The notes under the pieces: generated by a model
What the model saw: only the letters and a program-made list of their open reading frames with translations
Database searches by the model: none
What the model was told of the DNA's origin: nothing
Sequence record: MN850584.1
DNA from: Escherichia phage arall
Strand: one strand, 5' to 3'
DNA length: 64,000 nt
Shown: positions 25,793 to 64,000 of the stretch, in pieces
How the letters are laid out: each line of letters begins with the position of its first letter
Position numbering within the stretch: the stretch's first letter is position 1
Program-made: the position numbers and the translations under genes

Positions 25793-26605
25793 TTACTTAG
25801 TCAAATGATCTTCTATCATTTTTATGAAAGCAGGATTGCTAAAAGCATCTGCTGCCTTTTCTCTGTAAACAAAGACTCCTCTATCTTCGTAAAGAAGAGT
25901 TTCTTCGTAATTAATTCCTGGGTTAACAACAATCATTTTTGTACCCATATTAAGTGCAGGGAATAATTCCCAATTAAAATTGATAACTTGGTTTGAACAT
26001 CCTACTACAACAACCAAATCTTGCATGGTCAAAGTATCAAACAAGTGAGCCATATCTGCATACAAAGGTGCAGCCTCACCAAAAAATACAACATTAGGCT
26101 TCACCCAGTTATAATCATCTATGTTTATACTATTGTAACCAATATCTACCAGTGTTTTGTAATCTCCAGGATGCATACGGTAAACTACTTCAGGAAGATA
26201 CCCGTGCACGTGAATAACAGAATCCCTGTCCACACCTGCTCGCTCTAGTAGATCATCAACGTTTGTTGTCAAGTTTACTACTTGGTTAGGATATTCCTTA
26301 AACCACTTTGCTATTTGAATATGTGCAGCATTAGGTTGTACATCTTTAAGCTCAACACGTCTTTTGTTATAAAATTCGTGTGTTTTGGCATACAAGTCCA
26401 TACCGTTCTCGTCTACACCACCGACCACTGGAAGATCTGGAGATGTTCTCACACGATAACCTGCTTGGAAAGCTCCAATATCGCAGACCTCTTCTAAGTC
26501 ATATTCTTCCCATAAGGCACGACCACTATCTGTGTCTGTTCGGAACGTTCGAATCCCACTGTCTGCACTTAAACCTGCGCCACTAACAAAAATTACTCTT
26601 CGCAT
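25793..26605 (-). CDS. Sir2 (sirtuin)-family protein, Zn-ribbon-less
   Basis: GAGLSADSGIRTFR (sirtuin GAGxSxxSGIPxFR), TTNVDDL (TQNID), HVHG catalytic His, VVFFGE; no Cys4 Zn module; RBS AAGAGGA. Confidence 0.8.
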   Translation of the reverse strand: MRRVIFVSGAGLSADSGIRTFRTDTDSGRALWEEYDLEEVCDIGAFQAGYRVRTSPDLPVVGGVDENGMDLYAKTHEFYNKRRVELKDVQPNAAHIQIAKWFKEYPNQVVNLTTNVDDLLERAGVDRDSVIHVHGYLPEVVYRMHPGDYKTLVDIGYNSINIDDYNWVKPNVVFFGEAAPLYADMAHLFDTLTMQDLVVVVGCSNQVINFNWELFPALNMGTKMIVVNPGINYEETLLYEDRGVFVYREKAADAFSNPAFIKMIEDHLTK

Positions 26606-30772: not shown

Positions 30773-31093
30773 TTAACAAGTAATATTGGGAGTAACAATT
30801 GGATTAACAATTGGAGTAATAGGGTACGTAAACCAAGGGCTTCCAATTTCCCAAGGATAATAAGGTCTACGAGGATCGTATGGAGGAGTTACTTCAGGCT
30901 TTTTCCAAATCTCCGCTAATTGTTTCTTCCATTTATCCCTTGCTGTCTCATTATCTTCATCCAACTGTTCATCATTATCTTTTATTTCTGGTTTTGGAAA
31001 TAAAAGCTCTTTGACTAATTCAACATCTTCCGTCTCAATAGTAGTTTCTTTCGTAAGTTCTCCTACTGTTTCTTTAATTGTGATTTTATACAT
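30773..31093 (-). CDS. Pro/Glu-rich hypothetical protein (106 aa)
   Basis: ORF. Confidence 0.5.
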   Translation of the reverse strand: MYKITIKETVGELTKETTIETEDVELVKELLFPKPEIKDNDEQLDEDNETARDKWKKQLAEIWKKPEVTPPYDPRRPYYPWEIGSPWFTYPITPIVNPIVTPNITC

Positions 31094-31839
31094 TAGTCCT
31101 CCTCTAAAGTAGAATAAAATTGTAACGTATTTGAATCATCAAAATATGCAAAGGTTAAATTACCATTGAAGCAAGATCCTGTGTCCATATATACCCTATT
31201 ACTGCTAATCACAGGTTTAGGAACATAAGAATGCCCGTGAAATACATAATCTACTCCTGAAACCCTAGGAAGAAGAATCCCTTCAAGTGCGCAATCTATC
31301 ATATCACGATCCCACATTAAAGATTCTGTGAATTGAGAAACTTGCTCTTTATTCATATTCAAACAAAATGGCAAAACTTCTGTCACTGGTAAATGTTCCA
31401 AAACTGAAGGATACCCACCGTGAATAAAGCCTAGTTTCATATTACGATAATTGACAACAAGTACAACAGGTAAATCTTCTAGCATCAAAGCAAGAGCAGT
31501 TGCACCCTCTTCTCCACACTCGTCTAGAACTGTATGGCCTCCGTTCTGAAACCAACATTCGTAATATCGTCTATCACCTTCTAACAACCCTTTAATCATC
31601 ATATCTTCATGATTTCCACGAATACCATAACGATTTAGCTTTCTGGTGAATTCAACAACACAACGAAAATTCTGCTTGCCGCGATCTGTAAGATCTCCTA
31701 AAGATACAACAACATCTTGATCTCGGATACCTAAAGTATTAACACCTTTCTGGTACAAATCAAAGCAACCATGTAAATCACCAATAATAAACAGGTCTTG
31801 ATCATCTTTTACACTAATTTCTTGATATACTAACATCAA
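31093..31839 (-). CDS. Calcineurin-like metallophosphatase (Ser/Thr protein phosphatase family)
   Basis: GDLHG, GDLTDRG, GNHE motifs. Confidence 0.8.
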   Translation of the reverse strand: MMLVYQEISVKDDQDLFIIGDLHGCFDLYQKGVNTLGIRDQDVVVSLGDLTDRGKQNFRCVVEFTRKLNRYGIRGNHEDMMIKGLLEGDRRYYECWFQNGGHTVLDECGEEGATALALMLEDLPVVLVVNYRNMKLGFIHGGYPSVLEHLPVTEVLPFCLNMNKEQVSQFTESLMWDRDMIDCALEGILLPRVSGVDYVFHGHSYVPKPVISSNRVYMDTGSCFNGNLTFAYFDDSNTLQFYSTLEED

Positions 31840-53717: not shown

Positions 53718-53730
53718 AATACCTCCAATA

Positions 53731-53754
53731 AGCCCCCGAAGGGGCTTTATTTCT
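53731..53754. terminator. Hairpin AGCCCC-CGAA-GGGGCT + TTATTTCTT
   Basis: GC stem; T-run is on + strand though flanking genes are on -. Confidence 0.45.
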
Positions 53755-54476
53755 TAAGCAATGATTGCTGCGATATTAGGTTTAACAAAGGTAGATGGTT
53801 TCATAATTTTACCTTTGTCATCAAAGAATACGTACACCTTTTGAACTTCGTTATATACAGCATGTACCCCAGTATAAGAACCTTCTGCACGATCTTTGCT
53901 TCGCATCTCGATAGCATCGCACTCTTTTTCAAGAGCTTCAATAATATCCTTAGTTTCCCAAATAGCCAGGAGTTGCTTCTTGGTAGGATACTTGGACTCA
54001 TTGCTATTCAACACTTCACGCATAACCTTCTTCTCGTTATAAACAGAACGCACCAAAGTATCTCGTGCCATACGGGTAAGTGTAAGAGACATTAAGGCAA
54101 ATTGCAAGTCATTTTCTACCATTTTATCAAATTCAATGATAACATCGTAAATGTTTTCTGCCAGAACATCTCCTGTCGGCATTTCCAGAGCTTTATCAAC
54201 ACCTTCTTTACCAAAGAACATAAATGCCAGGTAGGATGCTACCACAAAAATATCTGCTGCTGCATCAAGTAATTCAACGTGATCATTTTCCTGTGCTGCT
54301 GCTTGAAACTCTTTAAGTTCTTCTCGTACAAAAGAAAGTTGAGCTTCAAACATCTCTTGAGTAAATTCTGGAGTTACTCCACCGCGTGCCTTAGCATTCC
54401 AAGCAACAATTTGATCGGCAGCTTTGATAAAGAAGCTATTGTCCACTTTTACTTGTTTGAAAAAATTCTCGATCAT
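53754..54476 (-). CDS. Hypothetical protein, possibly all-alpha NTP pyrophosphohydrolase (MazG-like)
   Basis: Spaced acidic residues in helices (ELKEF...ELLDAAADI); weak. Confidence 0.3.
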   Translation of the reverse strand: MIENFFKQVKVDNSFFIKAADQIVAWNAKARGGVTPEFTQEMFEAQLSFVREELKEFQAAAQENDHVELLDAAADIFVVASYLAFMFFGKEGVDKALEMPTGDVLAENIYDVIIEFDKMVENDLQFALMSLTLTRMARDTLVRSVYNEKKVMREVLNSNESKYPTKKQLLAIWETKDIIEALEKECDAIEMRSKDRAEGSYTGVHAVYNEVQKVYVFFDDKGKIMKPSTFVKPNIAAIIA

Positions 54477-54673: not shown

Positions 54674-55789
54674 TTACTCTGCTGGTTCCCAAGTACCTGG
54701 AATCATCTTACGTAAACGGACACCTGTTGGTTTCGTAGGTATTCCACCATCGGAAAACTCTTCATACTCAATCTCAACAAATTTACCAATTAACATTTCA
54801 GCATTTTCTGCTTTACGATAGTTAATAGTTTCGTCTGAATCCTTACGCATCAGGAATTCGACTACTTTACCATTTTCCATCTCTCCTGTCAATACCCCGT
54901 CACCATTTTTATCACGCTTTGCACTTACCACTTTAACTTCAAGCGTCTGGCGTGGTTTACGTTTAATAACATCATAAGAACGTTTATCAAATTCGTAAAC
55001 ACCTTTTGCATTACGATACACCACACCTTCCGCTTTCTCACGTAGAGCTTTTGCATAGAAAGCATCAAACTGTTCTTGGTTTTCAATGTACTCTGTATGT
55101 ACTACACAAATAAGTTCATCTAAACCTTTGTCTTCAACAACTTCTTTTAGAGCAGCCAAAACTTGAACCCTCTTCTCAAATGGTACAGATGCCACAGGAA
55201 CATCATATACATAGTATTTAAGAAGTGGTGTGTTAGCATTATGCTTTTTCCACGCACTATTAATTTGTTGAAGGCTAAGAACACCCAAGCCAGCAAAAAC
55301 TTCACCGTCAAGAGGATGACCAACTACTTCTTTAATAAAGGTTGGAATTTCTTCCCAGTGAGGTGGAAGTTTATATACCTCCCCAGCTTTAGATAAACAT
55401 TCACCTTGCATGTTAATCATTGAACGTAGACCATTCAATTTATATTGTGCATAACCTGGGAACAAAACACGGTCAGCATAATCTTTATAATCCTGACATT
55501 TCATGGGTGTGGAAGGAACATGGTTTTCAGCTTCCTCTTTTGTTTTATAGTACCCATTCTTAAGTTGCTTTGTCCATTTGGCAAGAGCTTCTATTTCAGC
55601 TTGTTCTTCTGCTGTTGTTTCATTTGAGCGACCAATATTTTTAGGTTCTGCCGTATAAGATTTGCTAGTGATCTTTCCACCTAATTGACCATGAGCAACA
55701 GTTACAACACTACCTTCGGTATAGACTGACCACTGTCTAATTTTACCTGTAGAAGTTTTACCATATAATGTAGGATTAGTTTGTTTCAT
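54674..55789 (-). CDS. ATP-dependent DNA ligase-like nucleotidyltransferase
   Basis: Start at MKQTNP (RBS GGAGG); KLNGLR (motif I variant), LDGEVF (III), EGVVYR (IV), VIKRK (V), C-terminal OB-like region. Confidence 0.6.
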   Translation of the reverse strand: MKQTNPTLYGKTSTGKIRQWSVYTEGSVVTVAHGQLGGKITSKSYTAEPKNIGRSNETTAEEQAEIEALAKWTKQLKNGYYKTKEEAENHVPSTPMKCQDYKDYADRVLFPGYAQYKLNGLRSMINMQGECLSKAGEVYKLPPHWEEIPTFIKEVVGHPLDGEVFAGLGVLSLQQINSAWKKHNANTPLLKYYVYDVPVASVPFEKRVQVLAALKEVVEDKGLDELICVVHTEYIENQEQFDAFYAKALREKAEGVVYRNAKGVYEFDKRSYDVIKRKPRQTLEVKVVSAKRDKNGDGVLTGEMENGKVVEFLMRKDSDETINYRKAENAEMLIGKFVEIEYEEFSDGGIPTKPTGVRLRKMIPGTWEPAE

Positions 55790-55979
55790 CTTTAACCTCC
55801 AGTTGCGAAAGAACCCATTTAGCCATTTCAATTTCACCGTGTAGTCTGCCTAGTTCATAGGCATCATCAATATTACCACCAGTGTAATCATCCACCATAA
55901 AGTAAGGATCTTCACTACTGTTAGGCGCGTTTGCAATTCTCGTTAGTTCTTCAATAAATGTCATAGTTAACCTTACCAA
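55776..55979 (-). CDS. Hypothetical protein (67 aa)
   Basis: ORF. Confidence 0.5.
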   Translation of the reverse strand: MVRLTMTFIEELTRIANAPNSSEDPYFMVDDYTGGNIDDAYELGRLHGEIEMAKWVLSQLEVKDETN

Positions 55980-56200: not shown

Positions 56201-56521
56201 TTAATCCTTAAGACGTTCATTTAAATCTGCAATAACATCACCTAAATCTTCACATTCCAGCGTTAACTCTGAAACTTGTCCACTCAAATAAGAAACTTCT
56301 TCGTTTAGATCTGAAATAATGTTTTCTAATGAATCTACTTGGTCATCATATGCACGTTTTGTTTCTTCAAGTTCTTCCGTAAGATCATTAATCAAACGGA
56401 GCAAAGATAAGATATAGCCGTCTCCTGTCTCGTTCCTCCACTCACTTCCATAGCGATAAATAATAATTTTACCATCATCGACTACTGTAAAATACTTACC
56501 TTTACCAGAATAAATTTCCAT
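56201..56521 (-). CDS. Coiled-coil hypothetical protein (106 aa)
   Basis: ORF. Confidence 0.5.
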   Translation of the reverse strand: MEIYSGKGKYFTVVDDGKIIIYRYGSEWRNETGDGYILSLLRLINDLTEELEETKRAYDDQVDSLENIISDLNEEVSYLSGQVSELTLECEDLGDVIADLNERLKD

Positions 56522-56530
56522 AAATTCTCC

Positions 56531-56935
56531 TTATTGTAGCTTAAGTGAACTGCGAAGACGTTTCTCTTGCTGATCACGAATATGTTGTGGAACCTCATGA
56601 ATTGAGTCGTTACCGTGCCTATTTTCAACAACTAAAGAGATAACTTGATAACCAAACTCTTCAGCAAGAGTTAAATAAGGTTTAAGTTCTTTCTCTGTGG
56701 TTGAAGTGTTAGAGACAATAATCTTTTTAATATTAGATGCCATAGCATCACGAACAATACTCTGACACCATGCGTGGGCTTTACCTACATTTTCTGGCTT
56801 CCAATCGTAAACACCCCTTTCTGTGTAATGGTATTGATCTGCCTCACAGATAGGCCAATAACCTTCAGAAATAATTTCTGCTACTGTAGATTTACCTGCA
56901 CCTGAAACACCACGTAAAATGATAAGTTGTTTCAT
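56531..56935 (-). CDS. P-loop polynucleotide kinase (Pnk kinase-domain-like)
   Basis: IILRGVSGAGKST (Walker A), IIVSNT; parallels recalled T4 Pnk kinase domain. Confidence 0.65.
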   Translation of the reverse strand: MKQLIILRGVSGAGKSTVAEIISEGYWPICEADQYHYTERGVYDWKPENVGKAHAWCQSIVRDAMASNIKKIIVSNTSTTEKELKPYLTLAEEFGYQVISLVVENRHGNDSIHEVPQHIRDQQEKRLRSSLKLQ

Positions 56936-57868
56936 TTAGCCTCCAAAGAAGTTTTCTATTTCTTTACGTCGCTCTTGTGGAGCTAGAGCAGCCCATTGAA
57001 CCTTCGTAAAATTATTTCGAAGCCATTCTATCAAAGTATAATATTCTTCGTCAACAATTTGTTTAGCATTATTTGGGTTGTCCCAAATCATATCCCACTT
57101 CTTATTACCACCACGCATAAGGAACTTCTTAGCAAGATAGTATGGTGACTTAATTTTTAAGAGTAAGTTAAACGGGTAGTTTGTTTCACGAACAACAAAG
57201 CCTTCGTGTCTACAATGTTTAGACATTTCAACAACATCTGAAAATTTAATCATCGGATAAACTTCAGGACGTTTAAATTTTGTAATAGATGCAATCCCAT
57301 CAAGAACACCTTCAGGTAACATGAAACTTGTCCCATCAAGATTTTGAATTCTTGCTCCAATTAAGTATGCGCCTGGTTCTTCTTCGACAATATGTGGATC
57401 AGAAGGATCACAGATTTCAAAAAGGAAAGTTGCTTTTGCACTTTCTGTCCACTTAATGAAATACTCTATGTCATCACACTCGGAAACAATACGGTTCTTG
57501 GCAATAGTTGCAAAGTCTGACTCTAGGCTCCCTGTTGTTGATACAACAAGTTTCCCTTTGTACACACCTACAGATGCCATAAAACCGTTTACTTTACGGA
57601 CAGCATCTACAAATTCATCTCCTGGAAGATCTGTACCATTCTCAAAACGATTAAAGATTTTAGTAAAAGGCCAAATAACAATATTATCTTCTGAGTCAAC
57701 AACCAACCCACGACAATCTAAAAGTCGTTTGTCAACGTTCCACAAGTTATCCCAGAATACATTGTTTTTGTATTTAAGTACAGCAAGACCAGCATACTCT
57801 CCAGATTTAACTTCTTTTTTATGCACTAAACCTTTTGCAATCAGGTCATCACAATTGAACTTAGCCAC
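56936..57868 (-). CDS. RNA ligase-like nucleotidyltransferase (GTG start)
   Basis: RKVNGFMA (motif I KxNG), HEGFVVRE (motif IV), LLLKIKSPYY (motif V); RBS AAGGAG. Confidence 0.55.
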   Translation of the reverse strand: MAKFNCDDLIAKGLVHKKEVKSGEYAGLAVLKYKNNVFWDNLWNVDKRLLDCRGLVVDSEDNIVIWPFTKIFNRFENGTDLPGDEFVDAVRKVNGFMASVGVYKGKLVVSTTGSLESDFATIAKNRIVSECDDIEYFIKWTESAKATFLFEICDPSDPHIVEEEPGAYLIGARIQNLDGTSFMLPEGVLDGIASITKFKRPEVYPMIKFSDVVEMSKHCRHEGFVVRETNYPFNLLLKIKSPYYLAKKFLMRGGNKKWDMIWDNPNNAKQIVDEEYYTLIEWLRNNFTKVQWAALAPQERRKEIENFFGG

Positions 57869-57869
57869 C

Positions 57870-58421
57870 TTAATCTCCTTTGATTATCTTATGATGGTCT
57901 ACAACAATAATATCACGCTTATCCATAATAGAGATGATTTCGTCAAAATGCAAGATTTTCCCGTGTGCATCCCAACCAACATCCAACATTTTCCCATACA
58001 AATGATCAGGGAATGATCCGTGAGAGTGTCCGTGTAGCATGATTGATCCATGCCCTTGTTTATTCCAGGCAGCCATAGGGTAATGACTTAAGACGAAGAA
58101 CAATTTCTGATATTTCACTTCGTCATAATACACAACTTCTCCATACTCTGCAAGCACTTTTCTGTGTTTACTGTAATCATGGTTCCCAACACAGTAAGTA
58201 ATATCCCCTTGGAGACGGGAAGCAATCTTACGGGTATCTTCTTCAGTCCCGAAACAGAAGTCCCCAAGATGGTACATCTTTACTCCTGGTGTTGTGGCAC
58301 ATTTATTCCATGCTTCGATCAGTGCTTCTGTCATATGCTCCATATCTTCCCACGGGCGATATTCAGGAGCAAACTCTCGGATACGTTTGTGCATAAAATG
58401 CAAATCACTTGTAATAAACAT
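57870..58421 (-). CDS. Calcineurin-like metallophosphoesterase (putative RNA 3'-end healing phosphatase)
   Basis: DLHFMH, GDFCFG, GNHD, HGHSHG motifs. Confidence 0.75.
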   Translation of the reverse strand: MFITSDLHFMHKRIREFAPEYRPWEDMEHMTEALIEAWNKCATTPGVKMYHLGDFCFGTEEDTRKIASRLQGDITYCVGNHDYSKHRKVLAEYGEVVYYDEVKYQKLFFVLSHYPMAAWNKQGHGSIMLHGHSHGSFPDHLYGKMLDVGWDAHGKILHFDEIISIMDKRDIIVVDHHKIIKGD

Positions 58422-58783
58422 TAGTATAATCCCTCGCTGAATAGTTCACTGTTGTGACCATTTCTTTCGTAGTTAATTTGTTTGGCGTTATCTGCAATGA
58501 CATAAGCATCTTTGCGACTCCACCAGTTATAATACTGATCAATAAACCCTTGATTATCAGGTAAGCAAAACAGTTTATCGATCAATCCTGCATCTTTTAA
58601 AACATTAAGTTGTGCAGATAGTACAGGATTTGCATGCCTAACACAAGGAATAATTAACTCTTCACCATTGTTAAGAATATACTTGTTCGCAGCGCAGACT
58701 ATAACACGTTGAGCATAGTGATCCTCACCAATCCAAGTGAGAGGTTGGTAACAAATATCATGTTGATTAGTAGCGCACATCAA
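58421..58783 (-). CDS. Hypothetical protein (120 aa)
   Basis: ORF. Confidence 0.5.
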   Translation of the reverse strand: MMCATNQHDICYQPLTWIGEDHYAQRVIVCAANKYILNNGEELIIPCVRHANPVLSAQLNVLKDAGLIDKLFCLPDNQGFIDQYYNWWSRKDAYVIADNAKQINYERNGHNSELFSEGLY

Positions 58784-58938
58784 TTTTCTCCATACTCTTT
58801 TAGTCTATCAGCTAAAAAACTGTAATCAGGAAGTAAAAGATCATTACTCGTATCGCTCCAATTTTCTTCCTCTCTATAGATAAAATGCCCTTCATCCTCT
58901 TCTTGCTCTGACCAGACTGAGTAATGCATAACACCTAC

Positions 58939-59313
58939 TTAATAGTTAACACGTTTAATTTCAACACCATAGGATGCAATAAAATTTTCCTTAGCTAACA
59001 TATATTTACCAGCAGCAGAAGGATTTGATGTATGAACATAGATAGTTTTAAGAGCATCCCATTCACCTGCGTACAACATACATTCTACGTCTAAGAACGC
59101 ATGATATCCTTCTTGATCTTCTCCAAGATCATTATCGAAGTGTATCTCTGAAATATTATTGAAATTATCTTCATCTGAAACAAAAGATGACCAATCCCCA
59201 AAAGATTTTAACCAAATGGCATCCTCATAACCATAATCTTTAGGATCTCTTAAATCGTCTAACCAAAGAATTTTAGCCACTATCAACCCCCTTCCTGTTT
59301 CTCTTCTTTCCAA
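58939..59313 (-). CDS. Hypothetical protein (124 aa)
   Basis: ORF. Confidence 0.5.
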   Translation of the reverse strand: MERRETGRGLIVAKILWLDDLRDPKDYGYEDAIWLKSFGDWSSFVSDEDNFNNISEIHFDNDLGEDQEGYHAFLDVECMLYAGEWDALKTIYVHTSNPSAAGKYMLAKENFIASYGVEIKRVNY

Positions 59314-61315: not shown

Positions 61316-62209
61316 ATGAAAGTTAGTATTCTACATGGTGTTGACTGTTATGTTACTGATGTAGACGTTAAAGTCTTTACATTCTCTGGTGGAGAACAAC
61401 ATGTTCAACTAGATACGAATCTATCAGGTTTCAATCATGCTACAGACAGAATCTTACTCTCTTTAGAAGTAAGATCTGCTAAAGACTTGATGACTTTGGT
61501 TATGACTAAGAATGCATTGGACAATATGCTATATCATAAACCATATTGTGTTGATTTGCTCATGTTGTATGTGCCATATGCACGACAAGACAGAGTGTGT
61601 GAACCTGGGGAAGCATTCGGAGTTAAAGCATTTGCTTCTATAATTAATTCATTAAATTTCTCACGTGTTATCGTTGCTGATCCACATAGTGATGTTACTC
61701 CAGCGGTGTTTGACAGACTCTGTGTAATACCTCAAGAAGAGATTGCTTACGAAACTTTAAAGTGGAAGTTACGTATGGAGAATTTTGCTCTTGTTAGTCC
61801 TGATGGTGGTGCTCTTAAGAAAATATTTAAATTATCTAAGAAAATGTCTTTAGATGTGTTCTGTGCAGAGAAGGTTAGAGATACTGCAACAGGTGCTATT
61901 GTTCGTACAGACATTTCTGTACAGGATTTCAATAAGCGTAACCTGATGATCGTAGATGATATCTGTGACGGCGGTAGAACTTTTATTGAATTGGCTAAAG
62001 TGCTACGTGCTCGTAACGCAGGTAAGATTGAGTTATATGTTACACACGGTATCTTTTCTAAAGGTCTTAAAGAGTTAAGTGAGCACTTTGACTGCATTCA
62101 TTCTCTTAATGTGTGGGAAGATAACATCCAAGAAGATTCCGGTGTTCTTGTTAAGAATCAGTCAGATTTGCAACAACAAATTGTATCTCCATACGTGTGG
62201 AATTTTTAA
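61316..62209 (+). CDS. Ribose-phosphate pyrophosphokinase (Prs)-family protein; candidate ADP-ribose pyrophosphokinase of NARP1-type pathway
   Basis: VPYARQDRV, ADPHS, VSPDGGA, MIVDDICDGGRTFIEL...YVTHGIFSKG parallel recalled Prs; adjacent to NAMPT-like gene. Confidence 0.8.
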   Translation: MKVSILHGVDCYVTDVDVKVFTFSGGEQHVQLDTNLSGFNHATDRILLSLEVRSAKDLMTLVMTKNALDNMLYHKPYCVDLLMLYVPYARQDRVCEPGEAFGVKAFASIINSLNFSRVIVADPHSDVTPAVFDRLCVIPQEEIAYETLKWKLRMENFALVSPDGGALKKIFKLSKKMSLDVFCAEKVRDTATGAIVRTDISVQDFNKRNLMIVDDICDGGRTFIELAKVLRARNAGKIELYVTHGIFSKGLKELSEHFDCIHSLNVWEDNIQEDSGVLVKNQSDLQQQIVSPYVWNF

Positions 62210-62280: not shown

Positions 62281-64000
62281 ATGAATATTTTTGCACCTTT
62301 TGCTACTGATTGGTATAAACCTGGTCACAAGCAGATGTACAACCAAAATACAAAACTCATTTTCTCTAATTTAACTCCTCGTAATGATAAAAACTTTGCA
62401 CACTATGCAGATCGTGAAGCACGTGGTGTAATTGTTTTAGGTATTCGTCGAGCAGTTACTGATGCTCTTGTAACTATGTGGGATAGCTTCTTTAAAATGT
62501 CTCGTAGTGCAGCAGTAAATAAGTTTTATCGTATGTCTAAAAATGCATTAGGTGCTTCTTCTCCTTCTGCTGAATGTTGGGGAGAATTGCACGATTTAGG
62601 TTATCTTCCGCTGGAAGTTCGATCTCTGCCAGAAGGTGTTTTGTGTCCTATTGGTGTTCCTGTGTTTACTGTGCATAATACTTTAGAAAAATTCTTTTGG
62701 TTAACTAACTATGTGGAAACACTATTGTCAGATGAAACTTGGAAGACAATGACTAATGCTACAGCAGCTTTTCAGTATAAGCGTATTGCTATGGCATATG
62801 CGATGGCAACGTGTGATAATATTGATCACGTTAACTTCCAGTGTCATGATTTTAGCCTACGTGGTTTAAGTAATATTGAAGATGGTTATAAGAGTGGTAT
62901 CGCTCATTTGGCATCGTTCACAGGCACAGATAATATTCTGGCTATTGAAACTGTGCATGATTATTATGGTATTGATTATGATCAGTTTGTTGCAGGTTCT
63001 ATTCCGGCAACAGAACATTCAGTAGCAACGACTAACATTGGAGCTATTGTTGAAGATCTGAAGAAACATTTCCCACATCTTAAAGATGATGTTGATGGGC
63101 TTCGTTATGTAGCAGAGAAAGAGTTTCTTCGCCGCTATATTGAAGAAATTGTTCCAGAAGGTTTTTGTTCATATGTAGCAGATTCTTATGATTACTGGGC
63201 TGTCTTGACTCGCATTCTGGTAGAATTGAAAGAGTCCATTATGTCACGAAATGGTCGTCTTGTTATTCGTCCAGATTCAGGAGATCCGGTTAAAGTTGTT
63301 GCAGGATACAATGTTGAATCTTTTGCTAACTATGAAGACCTTTTAAATAATGGTATTGCTACAGCCACTGAAGTAGTTCATTTGGCTGATGTTAATAAGT
63401 ATTACAATGTTCTTCAGGATTGCAGTGTTGCTGATTGTATTGATGAAACTTATGAGATTCCTTATTGTGAAGCAGTAGGTTCTATTCAAATCCTTTGGGA
63501 AGTGTTTGGTGGTACTATCAACCGAAAAGGCTACAAGGTTCTTGATCAGCACATCGGTATGATTTATGGTGATTCTATTACTGTTGAACGAGAACACGAG
63601 ATCTTACGCCGACTGAAGAAGAAAGGTTTTGCAGCTTCCAATATTGTATTTGGTGTTGGTAGTTATACTTATCAGTTCAATACACGAGATACTTTTGGTT
63701 TTGCTGTTAAAGCAACAGGTAGTATCATCGGTGAACACGAAATTTTGGTAAGTAAGGAGCCTAAAACTGATCCTGGTAAACGCTCTGCAAAAGGTTTTAT
63801 TAAGGTTGTTAAGGATACAAATGGTAAACTTTCTCTTGTGGATAATCTTTCTTTTAAAGATATTCAAGATGAAGACAATGAGTTAAAAGTTATCTTCAGG
63901 GATGGTACGGTTATTACACCACAAGTAGAAGGACGTGATGAAACATTTACTGATATCCGCAACCGTGTTGATGTAGAGGTTCTTCGTACTATGGGAACCA
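62281..64000 (+). CDS. Nicotinamide phosphoribosyltransferase (NAMPT/NadV)-family protein, 3'-truncated by window; candidate nicotinamide ADP-ribose transferase
   Basis: TDWYKPGH (TDSYK), CHDFSLRG, GTDN, VIRPDSGDP, GMIYGDSIT, FGVGS. Confidence 0.8.
   Translation, partial: MNIFAPFATDWYKPGHKQMYNQNTKLIFSNLTPRNDKNFAHYADREARGVIVLGIRRAVTDALVTMWDSFFKMSRSAAVNKFYRMSKNALGASSPSAECWGELHDLGYLPLEVRSLPEGVLCPIGVPVFTVHNTLEKFFWLTNYVETLLSDETWKTMTNATAAFQYKRIAMAYAMATCDNIDHVNFQCHDFSLRGLSNIEDGYKSGIAHLASFTGTDNILAIETVHDYYGIDYDQFVAGSIPATEHSVATTNIGAIVEDLKKHFPHLKDDVDGLRYVAEKEFLRRYIEEIVPEGFCSYVADSYDYWAVLTRILVELKESIMSRNGRLVIRPDSGDPVKVVAGYNVESFANYEDLLNNGIATATEVVHLADVNKYYNVLQDCSVADCIDETYEIPYCEAVGSIQILWEVFGGTINRKGYKVLDQHIGMIYGDSITVEREHEILRRLKKKGFAASNIVFGVGSYTYQFNTRDTFGFAVKATGSIIGEHEILVSKEPKTDPGKRSAKGFIKVVKDTNGKLSLVDNLSFKDIQDEDNELKVIFRDGTVITPQVEGRDETFTDIRNRVDVEVLRTMGT

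What the first reader, a model, noticed from the sequence alone, without database searches (positions are those of the whole stretch)
56531..58421. Split phosphatase, RNA ligase and polynucleotide kinase trio (RNA-repair module)
Three adjacent genes encode a calcineurin-like phosphoesterase, a ligase-type nucleotidyltransferase (KxNG, EGFVVR) and a P-loop kinase resembling the T4 Pnk kinase domain. Together they supply 3'-end healing, 5'-end healing and sealing, as the T4 Pnk/Rnl1 pair does against anticodon nucleases. Here the phosphatase is metallo-type rather than HAD-type, and the three activities are on separate polypeptides.
Basis: partly seen in the sequence, partly recalled or inferred. 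Interest (0 to 1): 0.6.

Follow-up and report, generated by a model that had tools for sequence, protein, structure and literature searches.

The report
Phage RNA break-repair gene trio
Three tightly packed genes of a phi92-like E. coli phage encode a metal-dependent phosphatase, a T4-Rnl1-type RNA ligase and a small polynucleotide kinase that together most likely mend cut tRNA; this is a real but already annotated and widespread phage module that nobody seems to have tested biochemically.

Summary
Three minus-strand ORFs lie exactly at 56531-58421, and all the quoted motifs are present. The window is a Justusliebigvirus (phi92-like coliphage). In GenBank relatives these genes are already called phosphoesterase, RNA ligase (RNA repair) and polynucleotide kinase.

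- **Phosphoesterase:** it has a complete binuclear-metal site and belongs to the uncharacterised Aquifex aq_1665 family.

Linkage is strong. Of 70 viral loci with ligases 30-100% identical, 67 carry the phosphoesterase and 63 the kinase nearby, in two gene orders. Natural fusions also exist: kinase-metallophosphatase-ligase, kinase-ligase and ligase-kinase.

A fourth predicted component, a cREC cyclic-phosphate-processing protein, lies two genes upstream. In related phages it sits between ligase and kinase.

The RNA-repair reading is supported but not new. Metallophosphatase healing is known from bacterial Pnkp, and calcineurin-type phosphatases in phage RNA repair are already in the literature. 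I found no biochemical study. Interest is modest.

The parts
57870..58421 (-). Stand-alone binuclear metallophosphoesterase (183 aa). It is the predicted healing enzyme for the 3' end (2',3'-cyclic phosphate or 3'-phosphate).
   Evidence: PHROG 547 'phosphoesterase', 8.5e-55. Pfam Metallophos_2, 4.8e-4, below cut-off. A family profile hits Aquifex aq_1665 (PDB 1xm7) at 7.4e-24. D6, H8, H11, G53-D54, G79-N80-H81, H113, G131-H132 and H134 are invariant in 28 homologues. Found within 5 kb of the ligase in 67 of 70 viral loci.
56936..57868 (-). ATP-dependent RNA ligase with an Rnl1-type adenylyltransferase domain and its own short helical C-terminal module (310 aa, GTG start). Predicted sealing enzyme; Lys92 is the predicted AMP acceptor.
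56531..56935 (-). Minimal stand-alone P-loop polynucleotide 5'-kinase (134 aa). Predicted 5'-OH healing enzyme.
58939..59280 (-). cREC protein (receiver-fold, predicted cyclic-phosphate-processing enzyme). Probable accessory 3'-healing component. The mechanical ORF extends to a TTG at 59313; relatives are annotated from 59280.
   Evidence: Pfam cREC_REC PF20274, 3.9e-13, 50.3 bits against a cut-off of 27. The receiver-type acidic residues WLDD and HFDNDLGE, plus TSNPSA and K92, are invariant in 7 homologues. The gene lies directly between ligase and kinase in loci L005-L009 and L014, and right after the ligase in L016 and rV5. Its predicted role and linkage to RNA ligases are described in PMC7824862.
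58421..58783 (-). Arn.3-like ORF of unknown function (120 aa, PHROG 839), translationally coupled to the phosphoesterase. Whether it belongs to the module is uncertain.
   Evidence: Its stop codon overlaps the phosphoesterase start (TAATG). PHROG 839, 1.3e-46. No Pfam or PDB match. A 37%-identical homologue lies two genes upstream of the ligase in the distant locus L057.

Best explanation

Proposed steps:
1. The metallophosphoesterase opens and removes the cyclic or 3' phosphate to give a 3'-OH. In this phage lineage the upstream cREC protein may help.
2. The 134-aa P-loop kinase transfers a phosphate from an NTP to the 5'-OH, with Asp33 as general base.
3. The Rnl1-type ligase is adenylylated on Lys92, transfers AMP to the 5'-phosphate, and joins the ends.

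The genes are read as one translationally coupled block inside a long leftward operon of nucleotide-metabolism and replication genes.

**Shown here:** the folds and family assignments, conservation of the catalytic residues, gene linkage, and the natural fusions.

**Inferred:** RNA (tRNA) as the substrate, the order of the steps, the role of cREC, and the counter-defence purpose.
For: - **Ligase:** it belongs to the Rnl1/Trl1 structural group, whose characterised members repair or splice tRNA. It is far from DNA ligases.
- **Kinase:** it is closest in sequence and structure to the RNA-repair kinases CthPnkp, T4 Pnk and Pnkp1.
- **Phosphoesterase:** it has a complete metal site.
- **Linkage:** of 70 viral loci, 67 have the phosphoesterase, 63 the kinase and 61 both. 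When ligases are collapsed at 55% identity, 22 of 24 clusters have both. Two gene orders occur, MLK 33 times and KLM 26 times.
- **Fusions:** a 712-aa Leptolyngbya protein combines AAA_33 kinase, Metallophos and RNA_lig_T4_1. Its ligase part is 32% identical to the window ligase over full length, and RtcB lies 1.6 kb away. About 23 of the best 150 library representatives are 700-812 aa, with the ligase domain at the C-terminus. All three that were scanned have the same three-domain architecture. Kinase-ligase and ligase-kinase fusions also exist.
- **Context:** cREC is embedded in the module in sister phages. Relatives carry a cluster of 12-15 tRNA genes, including Lys, Tyr and Asn, a few kb away.
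- **Packing:** the genes are translationally coupled.
Against: - No biochemical or genetic test of any of these proteins was found.
- The phosphoesterase subfamily (aq_1665 type) has no known substrate. It is not the PPP/lambda-phosphatase type found in the fused proteins and in CthPnkp, so its role rests on synteny alone.
- The ligase lacks the T4 Rnl1 C-domain that gives tRNA specificity, and T4's K119 is replaced by an invariant Thr112.
- The kinase has His36 where T4 and Cth kinases have an Arg that holds the substrate phosphate.
- The block sits among DNA-metabolism genes, with a DNA ligase 0.7 kb downstream.
Confidence: 0.75

Rival explanations
1. The three enzymes process DNA ends. Kinase and phosphatase clean 5'-OH and 3'-phosphate DNA breaks for the neighbouring ATP-dependent DNA ligase, and the 'RNA ligase' acts on DNA or on RNA-DNA junctions during replication or recombination.
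For: The block lies in an operon with a DNA ligase (54674-55837, PF01068, 2.9e-11), exonucleases, RdgC and a DnaQ-like exonuclease. A DNA ligase is within 5 kb in 31 loci. T4 Pnkp acts on DNA as well as RNA (own knowledge).
Confidence: 0.08
2. The genes are neighbours but act separately. The phosphoesterase degrades cyclic-nucleotide immune signals, the small P-loop protein is a nucleoside or nucleotide kinase for precursor supply, and only the ligase touches RNA.
For: One GenBank record names the kinase 'nucleoside/nucleotide kinase'. The phosphoesterase family has no known substrate. Phage calcineurin-like enzymes are proposed to attack signalling nucleotides (PMC7824862). The surrounding operon is rich in nucleotide metabolism.
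Against: The same kinase family is fused to the same ligase family in single proteins. Its nearest sequence and structural relatives are polynucleotide kinases, not nucleotide kinases. Phosphoesterase-ligase adjacency survives gene-order changes across very divergent phages.
Confidence: 0.08
3. The module processes the phage's own RNAs rather than repairing damage inflicted by defence nucleases. Examples would be maturation or quality control of the phage tRNA cluster, or RNA circularisation.
For: Relatives carry 12-15 tRNA genes within about 7-10 kb. The closest structural relatives after T4 Rnl1 are the tRNA-splicing ligases.
Against: No tRNA gene and no tRNA intron lies in the window itself. 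The phage's own tRNA genes, which lie beyond the window's right end, were not examined for introns. The module also occurs in phage contigs and cyanobacterial chromosomes; tRNA clusters next to it there were not examined. The precedent for phage Rnl1 is repair of host tRNA (PMC6379707).
Confidence: 0.06
4. The ligase works mainly as a tail-fibre attachment factor, like the second activity of T4 gp63, as many database names suggest.
For: PHROG 562 and many GenBank records carry the name 'RNA ligase and tail fiber protein attachment catalyst'.
Against: The name is simply inherited from T4 gp63. The gene sits in the early/middle nucleotide-metabolism operon, not among the tail genes. All adenylyltransferase residues are invariant. 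It is fused or linked to end-healing enzymes.
Confidence: 0.03

Closest known systems
Bacteriophage T4 Pnkp + Rnl1 (repair of tRNA-Lys cut by the PrrC anticodon nuclease)
   Different: In T4 the phosphatase is a HAD (DxDxT) domain fused to the kinase; here it is a separate metallophosphoesterase. The ligase lacks the 120-aa T4 C-domain that targets tRNA anticodon loops and instead has a helical tail of about 65 aa. T4 K119 is Thr here, and kinase R38 is His here.
Bacterial Pnkp/Hen1 (Clostridium thermocellum Pnkp: kinase, metallophosphatase and Rnl4 ligase in one chain)
Kinase-metallophosphatase-Rnl1-like ligase fusion proteins (for example Leptolyngbya sp. PCC 7375, L095:3768-5906; library proteins P0296, P0314, P0346)
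   Same: The ligase domain is the same family as the window ligase: 32% identity over its full length, including the C-terminal helical module. The kinase domain is related (hhalign 1.1e-8). The three-activity set is the same.
   Different: These are fused into one 700-812-aa chain and are cellular (cyanobacterial chromosome, next to RtcB). The phosphatase domain carries the PPP-type motifs GDxHG, GDxVDRG and GNHD.
Fungal tRNA ligase Trl1 (Rnl6 ligase, GTP-dependent kinase and 2H cyclic phosphodiesterase)
   Different: There was no sequence-profile hit to Trl1. The 3' healing enzyme is not a 2H enzyme. A requirement for a 2'-phosphate is unknown here, and no Tpt1 is annotated in the first 100 kb of a sister phage.
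Aquifex aeolicus aq_1665 (PDB 1xm7), a structural-genomics metallophosphoesterase of unknown function
   Same: It belongs to the same subfamily as the window phosphoesterase (profile E 7.4e-24).
   Different: No function is known for aq_1665. The phage context supplies a functional hypothesis rather than the reverse.

Membership tests
Rnl1 family of ATP-dependent RNA ligases (T4 Rnl1) | Covalent nucleotidyltransferase motifs I (KxxG), III, IV (EG) and V (KxK) | tested here: met
   K92-x-N-G95, F-E151, E222-G223 and K238-x-K240 are invariant in 33 homologues and align to T4 K99/G102, E159, E227/G228 and K240/K242.
Rnl1 family of ATP-dependent RNA ligases (T4 Rnl1) | Rnl1-type N-terminal sub-domain with the Arg and Lys that hold the ATP gamma-phosphate (T4 R54, K75; PMC6379707) | tested here: met
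Rnl1 family of ATP-dependent RNA ligases (T4 Rnl1) | T4-type C-terminal domain (about 120 aa) conferring tRNA anticodon-loop specificity. RNA ligase clades are defined by the appended domain (PMC6379707). | tested here: not met
   The profile alignment to T4 Rnl1 stops at residue 239/249. Only about 65 residues, forming six short helices, follow motif V. The protein is therefore Rnl1-like in its catalytic domain but not a full T4-type Rnl1.
Rnl1 family of ATP-dependent RNA ligases (T4 Rnl1) | Pfam RNA_lig_T4_1 above the gathering score | tested here: met
   53.3 bits against a cut-off of 28.3.
Rnl6 (fungal Trl1 ligase domain) | Trl1-specific C-module with the RxxR 2'-phosphate site, and dependence on a 2'-PO4 end | not testable with these tools
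Polynucleotide 5'-kinase (T4 Pnk / CthPnkp kinase clade) | P-loop GxxGxGK[ST] plus the Asp general base after strand 2 and a lid Arg | tested here: met
Polynucleotide 5'-kinase (T4 Pnk / CthPnkp kinase clade) | Arg three residues after the catalytic Asp (T4 R38), which binds the substrate's first internucleotide phosphate | tested here: not met
   The position is His36, nearly invariant in 31 homologues.
T4 Pnkp (bifunctional kinase-phosphatase) | C-terminal HAD/DxDxT 3'-phosphatase domain fused to the kinase | tested here: not met
   The protein is only 134 aa with a single domain.
Calcineurin-like binuclear metallophosphoesterases | Metal-ligand motifs DxH, GD, GNH[DE], H and GHxH | tested here: met
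   D6-x-H8, G53-D54, G79-N80-H81-D82, H113 and G131-H132-x-H134 are invariant. The window protein's own Pfam hit is below cut-off. In the family scan, 14 of 28 members matched Metallophos_2 and 12 of 28 matched Metallophos at E up to 0.01.
Bacterial Pnkp/Hen1 RNA repair system | Single-chain kinase-phosphatase-ligase (Rnl4) with a Hen1 2'-O-methyltransferase partner | tested here: not met
cREC (cyclic-phosphate-processing receiver domain, PF20274) | Pfam model above the gathering score, with receiver-type catalytic acidic residues retained | tested here: met
   50.3 bits against a cut-off of 27. D8, D9, D49, D51, S85 and K92 are invariant in 7 homologues. The enzymatic activity is only predicted in the literature.

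The most novel reading that the evidence does not exclude
The phi92-type ligase may behave like fungal Trl1 rather than T4 Rnl1. In that case the phosphoesterase and/or cREC would open the cyclic phosphate to leave a 2'-phosphate. The ligase would use that 2'-phosphate through the conserved basic residues K247, K248 and R252 just after motif V. The junction 2'-phosphate would then be removed by the host's orphan NAD+-dependent 2'-phosphotransferase KptA. That would explain why NAD+ salvage genes (Prs, NAMPT, NMNAT-Nudix), SIR2 and cREC so often sit next to the trio, and it would give bacterial KptA a natural substrate.

A less radical version also remains open. By the appended-domain criterion the ligase could define a new RNA-ligase clade, and the aq_1665 phosphoesterase family would gain its first function.
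Probability: 0.1. Interest if true: 0.7.

Novelty: new member of a known kind. Interest (0 to 1): 0.3.

Why it matters
RNA healing-and-sealing is how phage T4 escapes tRNA-cutting suicide defences. tRNA- and RNA-cleaving defence systems are now known to be common. This trio is a compact version of that pathway with different parts, and it is very widespread. The ligase family alone is in 606 cultured-phage genomes of Escherichia, Pseudomonas, Vibrio, Klebsiella and others, yet it appears untested.

Testing it would do four things:
- show which host nucleases these therapeutic-type phages can neutralise;
- assign a function to the aq_1665 phosphoesterase family and to cREC;
- supply a small stand-alone RNA kinase and an Rnl1-like ligase without tRNA bias as possible reagents;
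- settle whether the link to NAD+ salvage genes is functional or just a shared counter-defence island.

As a discovery it is incremental, because the genes are already named this way in GenBank and the concept is in the comparative-genomics literature.

Tried and rejected
- **Single-sequence PDB searches.** The ligase found nothing and the kinase gave only marginal hits. Family profiles were needed.
- **NCBIfam.** No useful model for any of the proteins.
- **Promoters and terminators, 53-61.5 kb.** Counts were not above the shuffled expectation (32 against 27.9 promoter-like sites). Only the bidirectional hairpin at 53722-53747 is convincing, so no separate promoter can be claimed for the trio.
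- **tRNA genes.** None lies in the window. The tRNA cluster of relatives lies just beyond the right end.
- **Arn.3-like ORF and cREC profile.** Neither has a solved relative by sequence.
- **Aq_1665-type phosphoesterase or cREC fused to the ligase.** Tested in P0283 and P0321; no match. P0321 appears to be a truncated PPP-type fusion: its N-terminal part carries GNHE and RGH motifs by eye.
- **Literature.** Searches for experimental work on this module in phi92-like, Justusliebigvirus or Stephanstirmvirinae phages found none. The Burroughs & Aravind 2016 survey is not held in the library, so what I attribute to it is from memory.
- **2'-phosphotransferase (Tpt1/KptA).** None is annotated in the first 100 kb of phage muut. 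The last 46 kb were not read, and annotation is not proof of absence.
- **Canonical Pnkp/Hen1 membership.** Rejected because the ligase is far from Rnl4 and no Hen1 is present.
Full report
**What the window is.** The region 56201-59313 is 96-98% identical over its full length to more than 40 complete genomes of Justusliebigvirus (phi92-like myoviruses of E. coli, subfamily Stephanstirmvirinae, about 146 kb). An IMG/VR contig, L003, encodes a ligase 100% identical to the window's. In those GenBank records the three genes are already named:
- In phage JohannJBalmer they are 'polynucleotide kinase', 'RNA ligase' and 'putative phosphoesterase' (bas62_0236-0238).
- In phage Paula they are 'putative RNA ligase / RNA repair' and 'putative phosphoesterase', copied from phi92 gp096 and gp097.

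**Check of the observation.** Three co-directional minus-strand ORFs lie exactly at the stated coordinates: 57870-58421 (183 aa), 56936-57868 (310 aa, GTG start) and 56531-56935 (134 aa). The quoted motifs are all there: K92-V-N-G, H-E-G-F-V-V-R and the P-loop G-V-S-G-A-G-K-S-T.

The junctions show tight translational coupling, each with a Shine-Dalgarno sequence:
- The upstream Arn.3-like ORF ends in TAATG, overlapping the phosphoesterase start.
- The phosphoesterase stop is followed by a single G and then the ligase GTG.
- The ligase TAA is followed immediately by the kinase ATG.

Pattern scans found no convincing internal promoter or terminator. The only clear terminator of this leftward gene block is the hairpin at 53722-53747.

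**The ligase.**
- Pfam RNA_lig_T4_1 scores 53.3 bits against a cut-off of 28.3.
- A profile of 33 homologues hits only T4 Rnl1 in the PDB (6.5e-11). It aligns residues 48-239 to T4 51-249.
- In that alignment the T4 residues R54, K75, K99, G102, E159, E227, G228, K240 and K242 correspond to R53, K70, K92, G95, E151, E222, G223, K238 and K240. All are invariant in the family.
[quoted passage not shown] The remaining assignments of essentiality are from my memory of the T4 Rnl1 mutational literature.
- T4 K119 aligns with an invariant Thr112, which is a real difference.
- The AlphaFold model is confident (pLDDT 92).

PMC6379707 states that RNA-ligase clades are defined by the domain appended to the catalytic core. 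The T4 C-domain confers specificity for tRNA anticodon loops. The window protein has only about 65 residues of short helices after motif V, and the sequence alignment to T4 ends there. It is therefore an Rnl1-type catalytic domain with its own C-module, not a complete T4-type Rnl1.

**The kinase.**
- Pfam AAA_33 scores 40.3 bits against a cut-off of 27. PHROG 505 'polynucleotide kinase' gives 5.5e-9.
- A profile of 31 homologues finds polynucleotide kinases as its best PDB hits. These are Pnkp1 of the Pnkp1-Rnl-Hen1 repair complex (6.5e-7), two Mucorales kinases (Rhizopus and Lichtheimia), T4 Pnk (8e-5) and the CthPnkp kinase domain (1e-4).
- Asp33 aligns with the T4 general base Asp35, and 'ENRHG' aligns with the T4 lid 'KRG'.
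- The Arg three residues after the Asp in T4, Cth and Pnkp1 is a nearly invariant His36 here.

**The phosphoesterase.** The window protein alone is below the Pfam cut-off (20.6 bits against 27). The family evidence is nonetheless clear:
- PHROG 547 scores 8.5e-55.
- 14 of 28 homologues match Metallophos_2 and 12 of 28 match Metallophos at E up to 0.01.
- A family profile hits Aquifex aq_1665 (PDB 1xm7) at 7.4e-24.
- All binuclear-metal motifs are invariant: D6-x-H8, G53-D54, G79-N80-H81, H113 and G131-H132-x-H134.

aq_1665 is a structural-genomics protein without a known function. This subfamily is also not the lambda-phosphatase type used by CthPnkp. The assignment to RNA 3'-end healing therefore rests on context.

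**Linkage.** Seventy IMG/VR loci encode ligases 30-100% identical to the window's.
- The phosphoesterase is within 5 kb in 67 loci, the kinase in 63, and both in 61.
- After collapsing ligases at 55% identity, 22 of 24 clusters have both.
- The median gap to the ligase is 0 nt for the kinase and 115 nt for the phosphoesterase.
- Two gene orders dominate: phosphoesterase-ligase-kinase (33 loci) and kinase-ligase-phosphoesterase (26 loci).
- The ligase family is present in 606 cultured-phage records: Escherichia 198, Pseudomonas 175, Vibrio 83, Klebsiella 36 and others. It is usually labelled 'RNA ligase 1 and tail attachment protein'.
- Pseudomonas phage PaP1 has phosphoesterase gp026, ligase gp022 and 'ATPase' gp021, followed by PRPP synthetase and NAMPT.
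- rV5 has the phosphoesterase and a small gene in the kinase position (a 136-aa 'Phage protein'), placed divergently from ligase, a 116-aa ORF in the cREC position and SIR2. Locus L016 has the same layout, with kinase and cREC confirmed by tblastn.

**Natural fusions.**
- In Leptolyngbya sp. PCC 7375 a 712-aa chromosomal protein combines AAA_33 kinase (residues 20-156), Metallophos (185-357, PPP-type motifs) and RNA_lig_T4_1 (451-643).
- Its ligase part is 32% identical to the window ligase over residues 14-308, including the C-module. RtcB lies 1.6 kb downstream.
- A search of 1.84 billion representatives with the ligase profile gave 7255 hits at E up to 1e-3. About 23 of the best 150 are 700-812 aa with the ligase domain at the C-terminus.
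- The three of these that were scanned (P0296, P0314, P0346) all have the kinase-Metallophos-ligase architecture. P0277 and P0339 are kinase-ligase. P0266 is ligase-kinase.
- The kinase half of P0266 matches the window's kinase family at hhalign 5.7e-39.

These fusions are the strongest evidence that the ligase and kinase families work on the same substrate, and that a metallophosphatase is their usual third partner.

**A fourth component.**
- Two genes upstream, at 58939-59280, lies a protein matching Pfam cREC_REC (50.3 bits against a cut-off of 27).
- Iyer and colleagues predicted this divergent receiver domain to process cyclic phosphates. They noted operon links to RNA ligases (PMC7824862).
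- The receiver-type acidic residues are invariant in seven homologues.
- In Phapecoctavirus-like loci the gene sits directly between ligase and kinase. In L016 it directly follows the ligase, and an ORF occupies the same position in rV5.
- It occurs in only 12 of the loci, so it is a lineage-specific accessory and not a core part.

[quoted passage not shown] Anticodon nucleases and HEPN enzymes are examples. The proposed steps then follow:
1. The metallophosphoesterase, possibly after ring opening by cREC, produces a 3'-OH.
2. The kinase produces a 5'-phosphate.
3. The ligase, adenylylated on Lys92, seals the break.

The folds, catalytic residues, linkage and fusions are shown here. The substrate, the step order and the biological target are inferred by analogy with T4 Pnkp/Rnl1 and bacterial Pnkp. 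I put 0.75 on 'RNA end-healing and sealing module', and somewhat less on 'directed against anticodon nucleases' specifically.

**Rival explanations.** Each is weakened by the ligase's distance from DNA ligases, by the kinase-ligase fusions, and by linkage that survives gene rearrangement.
- DNA-end processing together with the neighbouring DNA ligase: 0.08.
- Three unrelated activities, namely signal degradation, a nucleotide kinase and a ligase: 0.08.
- Processing of the phage's own RNAs: 0.06.
- A T4-gp63-like tail-fibre role: 0.03.

**Comparison with known systems.** It works like T4 Pnkp/Rnl1 and like bacterial Pnkp, but it is a full member of neither.
- Against T4: the phosphatase is metal-dependent and separate, and the ligase lacks the tRNA-specificity domain.
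- Against CthPnkp/Hen1: the parts are split, the ligase is Rnl1-type rather than Rnl4, the phosphoesterase is a different subfamily, and no Hen1 is present.
- The closest relatives are the uncharacterised kinase-metallophosphatase-ligase fusions found here.

The use of calcineurin-like phosphatases in place of HAD enzymes in some phage RNA-repair sets is already stated in PMC7824862. To my memory it is also in the Burroughs and Aravind 2016 survey, which I could not open. I found no experimental paper on this module.

**Novelty and score.** The finding is real and the reading is sound, but it is a further, already annotated instance of a known kind of system. Three things remain open and mildly interesting:
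- the untested aq_1665-type phosphoesterase and cREC as 3' healers;
- the ligase's distinct C-module;
- the recurrent neighbourhood of NAD+ salvage genes.

That neighbourhood comprises PRPP synthetase in 29 loci, NAMPT in 21, an NMNAT-Nudix gene and SIR2.

The last point allows a speculative Trl1-like pathway that uses a 2'-phosphate and ends with the host's NAD+-dependent KptA. In its favour:
- Invariant basic residues K248 and R252 follow motif V, close to where Trl1 has its RxxR site.

Against it:
- There is no sequence match to Trl1.
- A complete phosphoesterase is nearly always present.
- No Tpt1 is annotated in the phage.

I give this reading about 0.1. Overall interest is 0.3.

Noticed in passing
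window 58939-59280 (ORF to 59313), minus strand: A cREC_REC (PF20274) protein lies two genes upstream of the trio. It is predicted in the literature to process cyclic phosphates.
   Followed up: yes
window 58421-58783, minus strand: An Arn.3-like ORF (PHROG 839, 120 aa) has no Pfam or PDB relative. Its stop codon overlaps the phosphoesterase start (TAATG). A homologue also lies near the ligase in the distant locus L057. Its function is unknown.
   Followed up: partly
window 61316-62209 and 62281-64000 (+ strand); loci L015, L025, L031, L044, L068, L108 and others: NAD+ salvage genes lie divergently next to the operon: a PRPP-synthetase-like gene and NAMPT. They recur within 5 kb of the RNA-repair trio in many unrelated phages (29 and 21 loci). 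In environmental loci an NMNAT-Nudix gene often accompanies them. Whether the link is functional or just a shared counter-defence island is open.
   Followed up: partly
L095:3768-5906 (Leptolyngbya sp. PCC 7375) and about 25 other Leptolyngbyaceae loci (L076-L107): Chromosomal single-chain kinase-metallophosphatase-Rnl1-like ligase proteins (712 aa in L095) are found in filamentous cyanobacteria. In L095 a minimal nucleotidyltransferase/DUF29 pair and RtcB lie beside it. This is a Pnkp-like architecture with a non-Rnl4 ligase.
   Followed up: partly
window 54674-55837 (annotated 54674-55789), minus strand: An ATP-dependent DNA ligase (PF01068) lies 0.7 kb downstream of the kinase in the same operon. 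A DNA ligase is within 5 kb of the RNA ligase in 31 loci.
   Followed up: partly
window 31093-31839 and 25793-26605, minus strand: A second metallophosphoesterase, annotated in relatives as a NinI/lambda-phosphatase-like Ser/Thr phosphatase (Pfam Metallophos, 3.4e-13), and a SIR2-family protein (1.3e-22) lie elsewhere in the window. Lambda phosphatase has 2',3'-cyclic phosphodiesterase activity in vitro (title of PMC2190708), so it could be an alternative healer.
   Followed up: partly
window 53722-53747, downstream of the MazG-like gene 53754-54476: A strong bidirectional hairpin terminator (AAGCCCC-CGAA-GGGGCTT) is the only convincing terminator for the leftward gene block that contains the trio. 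It is annotated as a terminator in phage Paula.
   Followed up: partly
just beyond the right end of the window (relatives: L073 28681-31460; NC_052657 8243-11279): Relatives carry a cluster of 12-15 tRNA genes (Leu, Ser, Lys, Tyr, Asn, Thr, Gly, Gln, Pro, Met, Ile, Phe) starting less than 1 kb past the window end. None is inside the window. The phage thus combines tRNA supply with tRNA repair.
   Followed up: partly
GenBank MG065639, MG065645, MG065656, MG065689 (hits H17-H20): Records named 'Campylobacter phage' with host C. jejuni are 96.8% identical to this E. coli phage over the query and have the same genome size. They are probably coliphage sequences deposited under the wrong name.
   Followed up: no
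loci L019, L021, L023, L029, L032, L035, L037-L039, L071; PaP1 gp028 (L108 993-1553): In Pakpunavirus-like and other loci an HD-domain phosphohydrolase lies next to or near the phosphoesterase of the module. It may be a further 3'-end healing enzyme, as HD-Pnk is in Runella (own knowledge).
   Followed up: no
window, GC skew profile: GC skew changes sign near 26 kb and again near 61 kb. The switch near 61 kb coincides with a change in transcription direction, from the leftward block containing the trio to the rightward NAD/tRNA/structural block. ORFs flanking the switch near 26 kb were not examined for strand.
   Followed up: no
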